Shown here in pieces: positions 46,863-64,000 of a stretch of DNA of 64,000 nt. The notes below the pieces were generated by a model, which saw only the letters and a list, made by a program, of their open reading frames with translations, made no database searches and was not told the DNA's origin. This stretch comes from Candidatus Hermodarchaeota archaeon (GTDB taxonomy: Archaea; Asgardarchaeota; Hermodarchaeia; Hermodarchaeales; Hermodarchaeaceae), in NCBI GenBank assembly GCA_016839805.1, contig JAEOTO010000006.1, positions 32,001-96,000 of the forward strand, written 5' to 3'. Every line of letters begins with the position of its first letter. Within the stretch, counting starts at the first letter, position 1. Made by a program: the position numbers and the translations under genes.

Positions 46863-47516
46863 CTATGGAATCCGAGCAATTGCGATAATTCTGACTGCGT
46901 CAGCAGCATCTTCAGCAGCGTCCGCAATTTCCTCAAGATGTTGTCCTAAATCCTTTAGGCGTAATAAGACTTTGATATCAAGATTGGACTGATAGAGGAA
47001 CTGTCCAAATTTGCGATGAGCAGCATCAGCATCTCGCTCAGCTGAATCAACTTCCATGGCCATTTCAACGGCTTTGTCAGAGTTCTGCTTTAAGAACAGA
47101 ATAGCCTGCCTCATCTTATATACAGCATCAGAAAGCGCATCCAACATCGCTTTGAAGTGTCCTCGTGTCTTCTTATCAGGTTGAAATTCTTCAAGACCTG
47201 AAAGGTCCCAGGCTGAAGCCTCACAAAGATCAGCGATATCGTCAGTTCGCATGACTAAACGGAAGTAATCACTTCGTCGGAGCATCGTTTCTGCAACGGA
47301 TAATTCATCCAAAATTACTCGTTTGATACTGTCAGCTTTCCGTTCCAGTTTCGCTAGTTTGTTAAAATGGTCACGGTGTCGTCCCTTTTTTCCTTCCATC
47401 CAGTCTTCAATCATGACGCGGAGGGCTTTTGCCGCTTGTAGAACAACACCCGCATGATCTTGAGCAATAGCTATTGCTTTGTATTCAGCACGATTTCCTG
47501 CGCGTTCTAAGGTCAC
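46863..47516 (-). CDS. DUF47/PhoU-like phosphate transport regulator
   Basis: LERKADSIKR, DDIADLCE, AERDAD, LEEIADAAEDAAD. Confidence 0.85.
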   Translation of the reverse strand: MTLERAGNRAEYKAIAIAQDHAGVVLQAAKALRVMIEDWMEGKKGRHRDHFNKLAKLERKADSIKRVILDELSVAETMLRRSDYFRLVMRTDDIADLCEASAWDLSGLEEFQPDKKTRGHFKAMLDALSDAVYKMRQAILFLKQNSDKAVEMAMEVDSAERDADAAHRKFGQFLYQSNLDIKVLLRLKDLGQHLEEIADAAEDAADAVRIIAIARIP

Positions 47517-47584
47517 GTTCGTTCAACCTCTCGGCGTGGGTGGGTCAGGTACACCTCTATTAAAGCCTATCGTATGCACTTTAT

Positions 47585-47802
47585 CAAAAGTTGTGAGAAG
47601 AACCCGTCCGTCAGGGCGGGGAGGAATCGCGGAGTTTAAAAGGCTCGATAAATAGACACGGGTGAGGTCCCGGTTGGGAGCCGAGAACCAAGGCGTACTT
47701 GACCGGGCAATATCGCCGGAACGGTGAGTAGAGCCTGTGGACCAGTCGGCACTAGTCGATGGCGTGAAGCAGGAAACCCCCCTTCAGGTCGGGGTAGTTC
47801 AC
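47585..47802 (+). mobile_element. Non-autonomous IS200/IS605-family mini-element (left end, omegaRNA-like scaffold, right end; no ORF)
   Basis: LE hairpin CCCGTCC-GTCA-GGGCGGG; GCCTGTGGA...GAAGCAGGAA; RE ACCCCCCTTCAGGTCGGGGTAGTTCAC. Left boundary uncertain (after TTTAT 47584 or TTGT 47594). Confidence 0.75.
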
Positions 47803-48662
47803 CATGGAACTCCGAAAATTATTGTAGGAATCGTGAGAATCAAGACAATGGCTCCTAAAATGACACAAAAGATCCACCATGGAATACGTACGGCGGAGTA
47901 TCGAAGTACCGTTAGTACTCCTAAACCAGTGAGAAAAGCTACTATCACCATCATTGCGAAAAATGTCCAAGGTAGAACAAAAAGTGCTTCGCCAAAGATG
48001 AGGTCAAGAGCCACTACACCAAAAGTCGCGGGAACGGCTAAAATGAAGCTCAAGCGAAGTGCTTCTTCGCGCTTTACGCCCCGAACTAGTAACCAGGTTA
48101 ATGTCATTCCCGACCGGCTAATTCCTGGTAACACGGCAATTCCTTGAAGTAATCCTAACACGAAGGCTTCTCTAAGGGAGATGTCGATTAGTAACAAATC
48201 ACCCTGAACACCTCGCTGAAAATACAACACCACACCTGTAACAATCAAAAGGATTCCAACAAAAGCCGTGATCACATTTCCCAAGAAGTATGTTACAAAT
48301 CCTTGGAGAAAAAAGTACAACGGCAAAGCCACAACAACAGTACCAAGTGTGCCTACAATTACAAAAACAAAGAGTGGACCAAACAACTTCTTTGAGCTTG
48401 TTTTTGTAGTCATTTCTTCCTTTGTTGGAGGTGATATTCGCGCGTATAACGGACTAAAAATATCGCGGTGATAAAAGACAATGATTGTGAAAGCTGTACC
48501 AAGATGCAACCAGAAGATAAGCGAGAGTGTAAAAGCGGCGTCAAAATGATATATGTTAACAGCAACAAGCAATATCTGCCCCTCACTGCTCACTGGTAGA
48601 AACTCAAGCAGACCCTGCATCAGCGCTAGCAAAAGAAGCGGAATAATCATACTCGCCTTCAC
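47799..48662 (-). CDS. uppP: Undecaprenyl-diphosphate phosphatase (BacA family)
   Basis: QGLLEFLPVSSEG, HLGT, LPGISRSGMT. Confidence 0.92.
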   Translation of the reverse strand: MKASMIIPLLLLALMQGLLEFLPVSSEGQILLVAVNIYHFDAAFTLSLIFWLHLGTAFTIIVFYHRDIFSPLYARISPPTKEEMTTKTSSKKLFGPLFVFVIVGTLGTVVVALPLYFFLQGFVTYFLGNVITAFVGILLIVTGVVLYFQRGVQGDLLLIDISLREAFVLGLLQGIAVLPGISRSGMTLTWLLVRGVKREEALRLSFILAVPATFGVVALDLIFGEALFVLPWTFFAMMVIVAFLTGLGVLTVLRYSAVRIPWWIFCVILGAIVLILTIPTIIFGVPW

Positions 48663-63314: not shown

Positions 63315-64000
63315 AAACTTGTTTGCAAGTTCTCACTTTTCAAGGCGGGATTAAATTGACCCAAGACCAGCAGACTGAAAAACAACGAATACGGTCATAT
63401 CCTTAGAATGCGCCCGCTGCCACTCACCCGGAAAATTCGCATCTTTCCCACACCCCAACAAGAATACGTTCTGTGGGCCCTATCCGAGAAATGCCGTCTT
63501 CTCTACAACTTTGCCTTGGTTGAACGACAGCAATATTGGGAAGCCAACCGGACGAAACCACCCGAGGCGCGCACTTATATAACCTACATAAAGCAGCAAA
63601 ATGACCTTCCAACCATCAAAGAACAGTATCCCGAATACGCCTGGGTTTATTCCAAGGTTCTCCAGATGGTCTTACGACGCTTGGATGCCGACTACAAGTC
63701 CTTCTATGCCCGCTGGAACAATGGTGATCACCACGCACGTCCACCCCGTTTCAAAGGCAAGCAGTATTTCACCACCCTTTGCTACAACCAATCGGGATTT
63801 ACCATTGACATAGAAAATAAGCGGATCCGCCTCTCCCACAATCACCCCTCCGGTGTGGAACTCCTATTTGACCTACCATGGCTAACAAAAATTACAGGCA
63901 AGGTCAAACAGGTAGAACTCTTTCAGGATCGGCGACGTAGGTGGTTCGTAGCTATCACTACTGACGAGACGGTACCTGCCTATGTGGACAACGGGTTATA
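63315..64000 (+). mobile_element. IS200/IS605-family element (tnpB-only, IS1341-like), left part
   Basis: Imperfect LE-like hairpin TCTCACTTTTCAAGGCGGGA (63331-63350) upstream of tnpB; no tnpA seen; boundary approximate. Confidence 0.6.
63408..64000 (+). CDS. tnpB: TnpB RNA-guided endonuclease, runs off the right edge of the window
   Basis: Manual translation MRPLPLTRKIRIFPTPQQE...CRLLYNFAL...YSKVLQMVLRRLDADYKSF...PPRFK...YNQSGF. Confidence 0.9.
   Translation, partial: MRPLPLTRKIRIFPTPQQEYVLWALSEKCRLLYNFALVERQQYWEANRTKPPEARTYITYIKQQNDLPTIKEQYPEYAWVYSKVLQMVLRRLDADYKSFYARWNNGDHHARPPRFKGKQYFTTLCYNQSGFTIDIENKRIRLSHNHPSGVELLFDLPWLTKITGKVKQVELFQDRRRRWFVAITTDETVPAYVDNGL

What the first reader, a model, noticed from the sequence alone, without database searches (positions are those of the whole stretch)
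47580..47825. ORF-less IS200/IS605 mini-element retaining a TnpB omegaRNA, inserted in the uppP stop codon
Seen: a ~210-bp unit with an LE hairpin, TATA-like TTTAAA/ATAAAT, the GCCTGTGGA...GAAGCAGGAA scaffold and an RE ending TTCAC. Removing it with either candidate left boundary restores uppP ...GTT CCA TGA; with it the gene reads CCA TGG TGA, so the element supplies a new stop. Established: TnpB guides derive from the DNA flanking the RE. Inference: a stand-alone omegaRNA cassette with guide CATGGAACTCCGAAAA..., which could use TnpB in trans for homing (possible TAM TTTAT) and would also be antisense to the uppP 3' end.
Basis: partly seen in the sequence, partly recalled or inferred. Interest (0 to 1): 0.72.

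Follow-up and report, generated by a model that had tools for sequence, protein, structure and literature searches.

The report
Gene-less mini-transposon carrying TnpB guide RNA
A 218-base, protein-less jumping element of the IS200/IS605 family sits inside the stop codon of the uppP gene of an Asgard archaeon; it keeps only its two ends, a promoter and the guide-RNA scaffold of the TnpB nuclease, which is a real but already described kind of element.

Summary
Window 47585-47802 is a 218-bp ORF-less IS200/IS605-type element (a PATE).

- **Empty site:** a sister genome (G013, flanks 88-94% identical) reads CTTTAT|CACGGAACTCC there. The element therefore inserted 3' of TTTAT without target duplication. 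It split the uppP stop codon (TG|A) and supplies TGG TGA, adding one Trp.
- **Copies:** the genome holds 10 such minis (76-83% identical) at different sites. All follow TTAT and end in TTCAC. The family was found in 8 of 14 other genomes of the genus and in none of 26 outside it.
- **Link to tnpB:** a covariance model of the 3' 144 nt matches, end to end, the 3' end plus right end of two intact ISDra2-like tnpB genes in the same genome (E 7e-20 and 1e-15).
- **Structure and promoter:** stems show compensatory changes. The RNA core is the best conserved part (0.92, against 0.76 for the LE hairpin and 0.45 for the flanks). A TTTAAAT box lies 28-29 nt upstream of the scaffold start in 20 of 24 copies.

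Use of the RNA by TnpB in trans, and its transcription, are inferred and untested. No Y1 TnpA was found in this 87%-complete assembly. PATEs that encode omegaRNAs are already described (Meers 2023, PMC10055086; Dyall-Smith 2011, PMC3119063), and this scan had already reported other copies of this family. It is a new member of a known kind.

The parts
47580..47584 (+). Target/TAM TTTAT (host DNA, not part of the element). Its last T is the third base of the original uppP stop codon on the minus strand.
   Evidence: The empty site in G013 reads CTTTAT|CACGG. TTAT precedes nearly all of the 25 copies examined and the full-length C41 element.
47585..47602 (+). LE linker (CAAAAGTTGTG) plus the conserved foot GAGAAGAA 5' of the LE hairpin. 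The TAM lies 18 nt 5' of the hairpin.
   Evidence: Alignment of copies. Mean column identity of the linker is 0.65. The foot GAGAAG is conserved.
47603..47620 (+). LE subterminal hairpin, 7 bp with loop GTCA.
   Evidence: Sequence, fold, and the same hairpin in the C41 full-length element.
47635..47642 (+). Archaeal TATA-like box TTTAAAAG (family consensus TTTAAATA). It is the same box that lies 28 nt before the ATG of leaderless tnpB in the C41 element.
   Evidence: A box of this type was found in 21 of 24 copies. The distance from the box to the scaffold start is 28 nt in 16 copies and 29 nt in 4, with an unconserved spacer (0.52). C41 LE.
47663..47802 (+). omegaRNA-type scaffold, 140 nt. 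Its modules are: a 5' hairpin 47669-47707 with the conserved loop GAGAACCAA (47683-47691); a small hairpin 47713-47727; CCUGU (47734-47738) pairing with GCAGG (47769-47773); a hairpin 47742-47762; the RE hairpin 47776-47795 with loop UUCA; and the tail AGUUCAC 47796-47802.
   Evidence: Alignment A1 and RNAalifold: 40 pairs, 12 with compensatory changes. The loop is enclosed by variable stems in 24 of 25 copies. Model R1 scores this copy 150.7 bits, E 8e-37, and matches tnpB 3' ends. The core 47709-47781 has column identity 0.92.
47803..47818 (+). Presumed guide segment CATGGAACTCCGAAAA (host DNA 3' of the RE). It is the reverse complement of the last codons of uppP.
   Evidence: Position only. 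Flanks diverge directly after TTCAC in all copies. After excision, TTTAT plus this sequence would form the donor joint, as seen in G013 with one mismatch. No other TAM-adjacent 12-nt match exists in the genome.
47799..48662 (-). uppP/BacA gene. The stop TGA (47799-47801) and the first base of the added Trp codon (47802) come from the element.
   Evidence: ORF list, Pfam PF02673 E 4e-42, comparison with G013.

Best explanation
Window 47585-47802 is a non-autonomous, protein-less derivative (PATE) of an ISDra2-like, TnpB-only IS200/IS605 element of a Hermodarchaeia (Asgard) archaeon.

**Origin.** It arose from a full-length element by loss of almost the whole tnpB reading frame. The left-end promoter, which in the full element starts a leaderless tnpB mRNA, now sits 28 nt upstream of the omegaRNA scaffold that normally overlaps the tnpB 3' end and right end.

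**Insertion.** It inserted as single-stranded DNA 3' of TTTAT. This was presumably done by a Y1 TnpA supplied in trans. There is no target duplication. The insertion point falls between the second and third base of the uppP stop codon, and the element's terminal GTGAA (minus strand) restores a stop after one extra Trp.

**Likely function (inferred).** The promoter transcribes a roughly 140-nt scaffold plus the flanking CATGGAACTCC... as guide. TnpB from the two cognate elements (C41, C22) can load it. If the element is excised, the complex cuts the TTTAT-flanked donor joint, so that recombination restores the element. [quoted passage not shown]

Shown here: mobility, boundaries, TAM, copy number, homology to tnpB 3' ends, covariation, promoter spacing. 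Inferred: transcription, TnpB loading in trans, homing.
For: - **Insertion:** empty allele in sister genome G013, no duplication, insertion 3' of TTTAT.
- **Copy number and range:** 10 copies in the own genome, all ending in TTCAC with unrelated flanks. The family occurs in 8 of 14 other genomes of the genus and 0 of 26 outside it.
- **Parent element:** the full-length element C41:9285-10579 has the same TAM (TTAT), LE foot and hairpin, promoter box and RE tail.
- **Cognate TnpB:** its TnpB (P0001, 400 aa) has all three Pfam TnpB domains. It matches ISDra2 TnpB structures at E 7e-68. The DVG / VESLN / DRDLNA RuvC motifs and the CxxC...CxxC zinc finger are intact.
- **Scaffold homology:** model R1 aligns over positions 1-144 to the tnpB 3' ends at 86.6, 71, 89.4 and 89.4 bits, with arm-for-arm compensatory differences.
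- **Structure:** 12 of 40 consensus pairs show double changes. The GAGAACCAA loop is closed by variable stems in 24 of 25 copies.
- **Conservation:** the profile peaks in the RNA core (0.92), not in the transposase-recognised hairpins (0.76-0.79).
- **Promoter:** the TATA box to scaffold distance is fixed at 28-29 nt.
- **Literature:** the scaffold layout and the tail G-U-U-C-A match the ISDra2 omegaRNA description (PMC10097598). PATEs 'often encode omegaRNAs' that TnpB acts on in trans (PMC10055086).
Against: - There are no expression data, so the RNA is not shown to exist.
- No Rfam family matches.
- No Y1 TnpA was found in the own assembly (86.7% complete). It occurs in only 1 of 15 genus genomes, within a different tnpA-tnpB element whose right end is TTGAC, not TTCAC.
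- Copies are only 76-83% identical, so there has been no recent burst.
- One orthologous pair (G006/G005) shows changes at otherwise invariant core positions in one member. Individual copies therefore decay after insertion.
- Four genus genomes have minis but no cognate TnpB at >=67% identity in their incomplete assemblies.
- The 5' part of the mini's scaffold differs from that of the full-length elements, so compatibility with their TnpB is unproven.
Confidence: 0.85

Rival explanations
1. It is an inert relic. A deletion derivative of a TnpB element landed in the uppP stop codon, and its omegaRNA-like part is now non-functional DNA that is slowly decaying. The family-wide conservation reflects only descent from a few master copies.
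For: - Copies are old (76-83% identity).
- The orthologous G005 copy carries changes at invariant core positions.
- No TnpA is present in the assembly.
- Some genus genomes keep minis without a detectable cognate tnpB.
Against: - Conservation is highest in the RNA core, not in the ends that a transposase needs.
- Stems keep pairing through double changes.
- Promoter box and spacing are kept while the spacer sequence is free.
- This copy scores as well as the best copies against the model (150.7 bits, range 148-161).
- It inserted after the split from G013.
Confidence: 0.25
2. It is a domesticated stand-alone guide or antisense RNA. The cassette has been taken over by the host to regulate uppP (by antisense read-through) or a distant TAM-flanked target, in the manner of TldR-type repressors.
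For: It has its own promoter. Its transcript would be antisense to the uppP 3' end.
Against: - The insertion is absent from the closest relative, and nothing of the kind is conserved at this locus in 12 other genus genomes.
- It is one of 10 dispersed copies with unrelated flanks.
- No TTAT-flanked 12-nt match to any of the 12 guides exists elsewhere in the genome.
- The cognate TnpBs keep their catalytic residues.
Confidence: 0.05
3. The conserved 140-nt block is a cis-acting DNA signal for transposition (an extended right end for TnpA) rather than an RNA.
For: Covariation in hairpins cannot tell single-stranded DNA from RNA. The RE hairpin is certainly a TnpA signal.
Against: - The block is homologous to a region that in ISDra2 is the experimentally defined omegaRNA scaffold, with the same tail and stem order.
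- A promoter with fixed spacing sits directly upstream.
- Characterised IS608-type ends need far less than 140 nt (established knowledge of IS608, not tested here).
Confidence: 0.07

Closest known systems
PATE-like, protein-less IS200/IS605 elements that encode omegaRNAs (Geobacillus stearothermophilus; Meers et al. 2023, PMC10055086)
   Same: They have LE and RE like those of tnpB elements in the same genome and no protein gene. They carry an omegaRNA that must be used by TnpB made elsewhere, and they insert scarlessly next to a TAM.
   Different: The host is an Asgard archaeon, not a Firmicute. An archaeal TATA box from the LE sits directly at the scaffold start. TAM is TTAT and the RE end is TTCAC. 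There are no expression or activity data here.
PATEs of Haloquadratum walsbyi (Dyall-Smith et al. 2011, PMC3119063)
   Same: All defining features are shared: no terminal inverted repeats, near-terminal palindromes, no target duplication, too short to code, related to IS605/IS1341-type elements, arising by core deletion, and heterogeneous copies.
   Different: Those were described before omegaRNAs were known, and some are only 52-bp fused ends. This family always keeps about 140 nt of RNA scaffold plus a promoter.
ISDra2 TnpB-omegaRNA (Deinococcus radiodurans; Nakagawa et al. 2023, PMC10097598)
   Same: - The cognate TnpB matches the ISDra2 structures at E 7e-68.
- The scaffold has the same order of stems.
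- The RE hairpin has a U-rich tetraloop as its last stem.
- The tail before the guide is G-U-U-C-A.
- A GAAC is available upstream for the pseudoknot.
   Different: The TAM is TTAT rather than TTGAT. There is an extra small hairpin. In the minis the 5' hairpin carries the loop GAGAACCAA, which in the full-length genes lies about 410 nt upstream inside the coding sequence. The pseudoknot is not demonstrated.

Membership tests
IS200/IS605-derived PATE | No terminal inverted repeats; imperfect palindromes (hairpins) near both ends | tested here: met
   LE hairpin 47603-47620 and RE hairpin 47776-47795. Both are kept in the other copies, the RE hairpin with compensatory changes.
IS200/IS605-derived PATE | Insertion without target-site duplication, 3' of a conserved short motif | tested here: met
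   The empty site in G013 is CTTTAT|CACGG and the occupied site is TTTAT[element]CATGG. TTAT precedes nearly all of the 25 copies examined. Two other copies (C4, C41) do show an 8-9-nt repeat, which is unexplained.
IS200/IS605-derived PATE | [quoted passage not shown] | tested here: met
   The element is 218 bp. Only chance ORFs of 44-136 aa cross it, running into the flanks. In 21 of the 23 relatives' loci examined, no same-strand ORF runs to the RE end.
IS200/IS605-derived PATE | Ends shared with a protein-coding IS605/IS1341-type element | tested here: met
   C41:9285-10579 has the same TAM, LE foot and hairpin, box and RE tail around a 400-aa TnpB.
IS200/IS605-derived PATE | A Y1 (HUH) TnpA available in trans | tested here: inconclusive
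   PF01797 is not found in the own assembly, which is 86.7% complete. It is found in 1 of 15 genus genomes (G013), in an element with similar hairpins but the RE tail TAGTTGAC.
TnpB omegaRNA | Homologous to the 3' end of tnpB plus the right end | tested here: met
   Model R1 matches positions 1-144 at C41 (86.6 bits, E 7e-20), C22 (71 bits), G013 and G010 tnpB 3' ends (89.4 bits each).
TnpB omegaRNA | Conserved secondary structure supported by covariation | tested here: met
   12 of 40 consensus pairs have double changes. A variable stem encloses the invariant loop in 24 of 25 copies. Arms differ in a compensatory way between minis and tnpB 3' ends.
TnpB omegaRNA | Pseudoknot between the tail next to the guide and an upstream segment | tested here: inconclusive
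   The tail GUUC (-6..-3) can pair with GAAC in the 9-nt loop (-118..-115) or with GGAAC at -85..-81. All of these bases are invariant, so there is no covariation to test.
TnpB omegaRNA | Transcribed, and bound by TnpB to guide cleavage of the TAM-flanked donor joint | not testable with these tools
   Only indirect support: a conserved TATA box at a fixed 28-29 nt, intact cognate TnpB, and a donor-joint sequence that exists in G013.
Rfam RNA families | Match to a curated covariance model | tested here: not met
   No match at E <= 1 in 47000-48300, and none at gathering score in the whole window. This shows only that no curated model fits this scaffold.

The most novel reading that the evidence does not exclude
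In this Asgard genus the promoter-equipped minis form a dispersed set of trans-acting guide-RNA genes. They outnumber their nuclease genes (10 minis to 2 cognate tnpB) and are kept by RNA-guided homing. Two signs point this way. First, the RNA core is under stronger constraint than the transposase signals. Second, two copies (C4, C41) have the LE linker replaced by 8-9 nt of their own guide-matching flank, which could be scars of imprecise TnpB-cut-and-copy repair. In addition, the minis have brought next to the scaffold a hairpin (loop GAGAACCAA) that in full-length elements lies inside the tnpB coding sequence. This suggests an undescribed long-range element of these omegaRNAs.
Probability: 0.15. 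Interest if true: 0.55.

Novelty: new member of a known kind. Interest (0 to 1): 0.3.

Why it matters
It documents, with an empty allele and exact boundaries, an omegaRNA-only IS200/IS605 element family in Hermodarchaeia (Asgard archaea). It gives the TAM (TTAT), the right-end motif (TTCAC), a compact ~140-nt scaffold and two intact cognate TnpBs, which together form a ready-made system for a trans-complementation test. The pattern of conservation, with the RNA core above the transposase hairpins, is indirect evidence that guide-RNA function matters for the persistence of protein-less elements. For genome annotation, it explains the extra Trp and altered stop of uppP and the ~280-bp 'intergenic' stretch. 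It does not change what is known about the mechanism.

Tried and rejected
- **Rfam:** the scan of the region (E <= 1) and of the whole window found nothing.
- **tRNA/tmRNA:** ARAGORN found no gene in the window. My first thought, that the block was another structured RNA gene, was dropped once 10 dispersed copies appeared.
- **Minus strand:** folding it gave no signal (z -0.72, against -2.28 for the plus strand).
- **Closer parent:** I looked for a tnpB whose 3' end matches the 5' half of the mini scaffold. None was found in the genus. Only the last ~97 model positions align well to tnpB 3' ends.
- **Autonomous partner:** no Y1 TnpA in the own genome. The only one in the genus belongs to another element.
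- **Trans targets of the guides:** no TTAT-flanked 12-nt match (<=1 mismatch) for any of the 12 guides, so a host-regulatory role was rejected.
- **Co-occurrence of minis with cognate tnpB across the genus:** not informative, because the assemblies are incomplete and the genomes are related.
- **Empty site for the C41 mini:** only its right flank is found in G013.

Full report
**Where it lies.** The window is G000:C26:32001-96000 of a 2.3-Mb, 86.7%-complete assembly. Exact matches to a 22-nt core motif of the element occur only in MAGs titled Candidatus Hermodarchaeum yapensis and 'Promethearchaeota archaeon'. The host is therefore a Hermodarchaeia-type Asgard archaeon, as earlier notes of this scan also say.

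The flagged stretch lies between two minus-strand genes. One is uppP/BacA (48662..47799, PF02673, E 4e-42). The other is a PhoU_div/DUF47 gene (47516..46863, PF01865, E 1.7e-22).

**Observation.** The element is not unique. BLAST and a genome search found 9 further copies of 210-230 bp at 76-83% identity on 8 other contigs.

In an alignment, all copies end in GTAGTTCAC and the sequence diverges at once after TTCAC. On the left, homology ends about 18 nt 5' of a hairpin, directly after a conserved TTAT. The same pattern holds for about 15 more copies in other genomes of the genus. The family was found in 8 of 14 other genomes of the genus and in 0 of 26 genomes outside it.

**Empty site.** The closest relative, G013, has the uppP 3' end and the PhoU_div 5' region at 88-94% identity but lacks 216 bp between them. 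Its sequence reads ...GCACTTTAT|CACGGAACTCCGAAAAT..., so uppP ends GTT CCG TGA. The window reads ...GCACTTTAT[CAAAAG...GTAGTTCAC]CATGGAACTCC.

From this comparison:
- The insertion is 3' of TTTAT.
- It made no duplication. A shared CA gives a 2-nt ambiguity, which the family consensus resolves to 47585-47802.
- It fell between the second and third base of the stop codon.
- On the minus strand the gene now reads GTT CCA TG|G TGA: one added Trp and a stop supplied by the element.

**Relation to tnpB.** The genome has 13 TnpB-type ORFs above the PF07282 cut-off and one weaker match. Two of them, C41:9293-10495 and C22:21764-22960, share ends with the minis.

The C41 element is complete. It runs TTAT|CGAAAACTGC-GAGAAGA-hairpin-...-TTCAAATA-20 nt-ATG...tnpB...GAAGCAGGAAGC-hairpin-TAGTTCAC.

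Its product (P0001, 400 aa) shows the following:
- It has the HTH_OrfB_IS605, OrfB_IS605 and Cas12f1-like TNB domains.
- It matches the ISDra2 TnpB structures 8h1j/8bf8/8ex9 at E 7e-68.
- It keeps the RuvC D/E/D motifs and the zinc finger.

The C22 copy abuts what reads like the 3' end of a tRNA gene, judged by eye, and has lost its LE hairpin.

A covariance model (R1) built from 25 distinct mini scaffolds finds the 10 minis at 148-161 bits. It also finds, over all 144 model positions, the 3' ends of the C41 and C22 tnpB genes (86.6 and 71 bits; E 7e-20 and 1e-15) and those of tnpB genes in G013 and G010 (89.4 bits each). Between the minis and these genes the stem arms differ in a compensatory way: CGCCGG/CGGCG against CCGAGG/CCUCGG, and CCAGUCGGC/GCCGAUGG against GCUGUCAGC/GCUGAAGC.

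**Structure and conservation.** RNAalifold gives 40 consensus pairs, 12 of them with double changes that keep the pair. MAFFT blurs a further stem. Folding each copy on its own shows the invariant 9-nt loop GAGAACCAA enclosed by stems of differing sequence in 24 of 25 copies.

Mean column identity along the element:

| Segment | Identity |
|---|---|
| Flanks | 0.45 |
| LE linker | 0.65 |
| LE foot and hairpin | 0.76 |
| Promoter box | 0.82 |
| Spacer | 0.52 |
| 5' hairpin | 0.81 |
| RNA core 47709-47781 | 0.92 |
| RE hairpin | 0.79 |
| RE tail | 0.99 |

The strongest constraint on the lineage that gave rise to the copies is therefore on the RNA core, not on the hairpins a transposase reads.

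The layout matches the published ISDra2 omegaRNA (PMC10097598). The last stem is the RE hairpin with a U-rich tetraloop. A stem joins CCUGU to GCAGG. A hairpin lies between them. The tail G-U-U-C-A precedes the guide. In ISDra2, -5..-3 of that tail pair with -105..-103 to form the pseudoknot. Here GAAC in the conserved loop (-118..-115), or GGAAC at -85..-81, could do the same. All these bases are invariant, so this cannot be tested by covariation.

**Promoter.** A TTTAAAT(A) box was found in 21 of 24 copies. The distance from its first base to the conserved TGAGG start of the scaffold is 28 nt in 16 copies and 29 nt in 4, while the 20-nt spacer is free to vary. In the C41 element the equivalent box lies 28 nt before the ATG of tnpB, the geometry of a leaderless archaeal mRNA.

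The deletion that made the minis therefore joined the transcription start to the omegaRNA scaffold. In the minis the LE promoter should drive the guide RNA directly. This is inference from spacing; no expression data were available.

**Mechanism, and what is missing.** The anatomy fits peel-and-paste transposition by a Y1 TnpA, and retention by TnpB-guided cutting of the donor joint, as shown for Geobacillus elements (PMC10055086). [quoted passage not shown]

Several points weaken the functional part of this reading:
- No Y1 TnpA was found in this assembly.
- In the genus only G013 has one. It lies in a divergent tnpA-tnpB element with similar hairpins (loop TTCA) and the RE tail TAGTTGAC.
- The copies are old, at 76-83% identity.
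- An insertion shared by G006 and G005 has decayed at invariant positions in G005.

None of the 12 guides has a TTAT-flanked 12-nt match elsewhere in the genome. This fits homing guides and argues against a host regulatory role.

**Comparison and novelty.** The element meets every defining feature of a PATE (PMC3119063). It is the omegaRNA-bearing type described by Meers et al. Earlier follow-ups of this scan reached the same reading for other copies of this family in the same genome, and for a similar family in another genome.

The new points are the host group, the exact empty allele in a stop codon, and the promoter-to-scaffold fusion. It is a new member of a known kind, with modest interest.

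**Seen in passing.**
- Two other minis (C4, C41) carry, right after the TAM, 8-9 nt identical to their own right flank. The empty C4 site in G013 has only one copy of that stretch. This looks like a target duplication, which this family should not make. I suggest, without test, that it is a scar of imprecise cut-and-copy repair.
- The loop motif CGAGAACCAAG also occurs inside three tnpB genes, at the codons R-E-N-Q just before the RuvC-II Glu. Each time it sits in a hairpin with different complementary arms.

Noticed in passing
G000:C4:7594-7805 (L004:1501-1712, +) and G000:C41:21397-21608 (-): In these two mini copies the 8-9 nt directly after the TAM equal the first 8-9 nt of the right flank: TTTAT-AGTGTCCG-G...TTCAC-AGTGTCCGC, and TTTAT-AGCCTCCAC-G...TTCAC-AGCCTCCACA. 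This looks like a target duplication and replaces the usual CTAAA... linker. The empty C4 site in G013:C349 has a single copy (TTTTTAT|ACTATACACTTGCC). The other 23 copies lack it. It may be a scar of imprecise TnpB-cut/recombination repair; untested.
   Followed up: partly
G000:C41:~9698, G000:C22:~22169, G000:C42:~70860 (inside tnpB genes): The invariant loop motif CGAGAACCAAG of the minis' 5' hairpin also lies inside three tnpB coding sequences. In C41 and C22 it falls on the codons R-E-N-Q just before the RuvC-II Glu, about 410 nt upstream of the right end in C41. Each time it is flanked by different but complementary arms, with synonymous compensatory changes between C41 and C22.
   Followed up: partly
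window 63408-64000 (+), runs off the window end: This is the start of another TnpB-type gene: a 455-aa frame in the genome, with its PF07282 match at C26:96392-96583. It belongs to a different family from the minis' cognate TnpB.
   Followed up: no
L097 (G013:C208:1-2307): This is the only Y1 TnpA (PF01797, E 6e-38) found in 15 genus genomes. It lies divergent to a 379-aa TnpB. Its ends resemble those of the minis (TTTAT upstream, hairpins with loop TTCA, RE tail GGTAGTTGAC), but model R1 does not match its 3' region.
   Followed up: partly
L094 (G000:C22:20256-23421), upstream of tnpB: The C22 tnpB element directly abuts what reads like a tRNA 3' end (GGTTCGAATCC...GCGCCA, by eye; not checked with a tRNA finder). 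It lacks the LE hairpin and its RE tail reads CTCAC, so this copy is probably immobile although its TnpB frame is intact.
   Followed up: no
L057 (G006:C14) and L047 (G005:C26): The same mini insertion (same flanks) is present in two species. The G005 copy has substitutions at several positions that are invariant in the rest of the family (e.g. GGGAAAC, ATTGCC, GATTAG, ATTAAG). Single copies therefore decay after insertion.
   Followed up: partly
window 47540-47556 (minus strand) and relatives L063-L073: The motif CCTCTATTAAAGC upstream of the PhoU_div/DUF47 gene is conserved across the genus. It is probably that gene's TATA box on the minus strand. The mini inserted about 25 bp upstream of it without disturbing it.
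   Followed up: no
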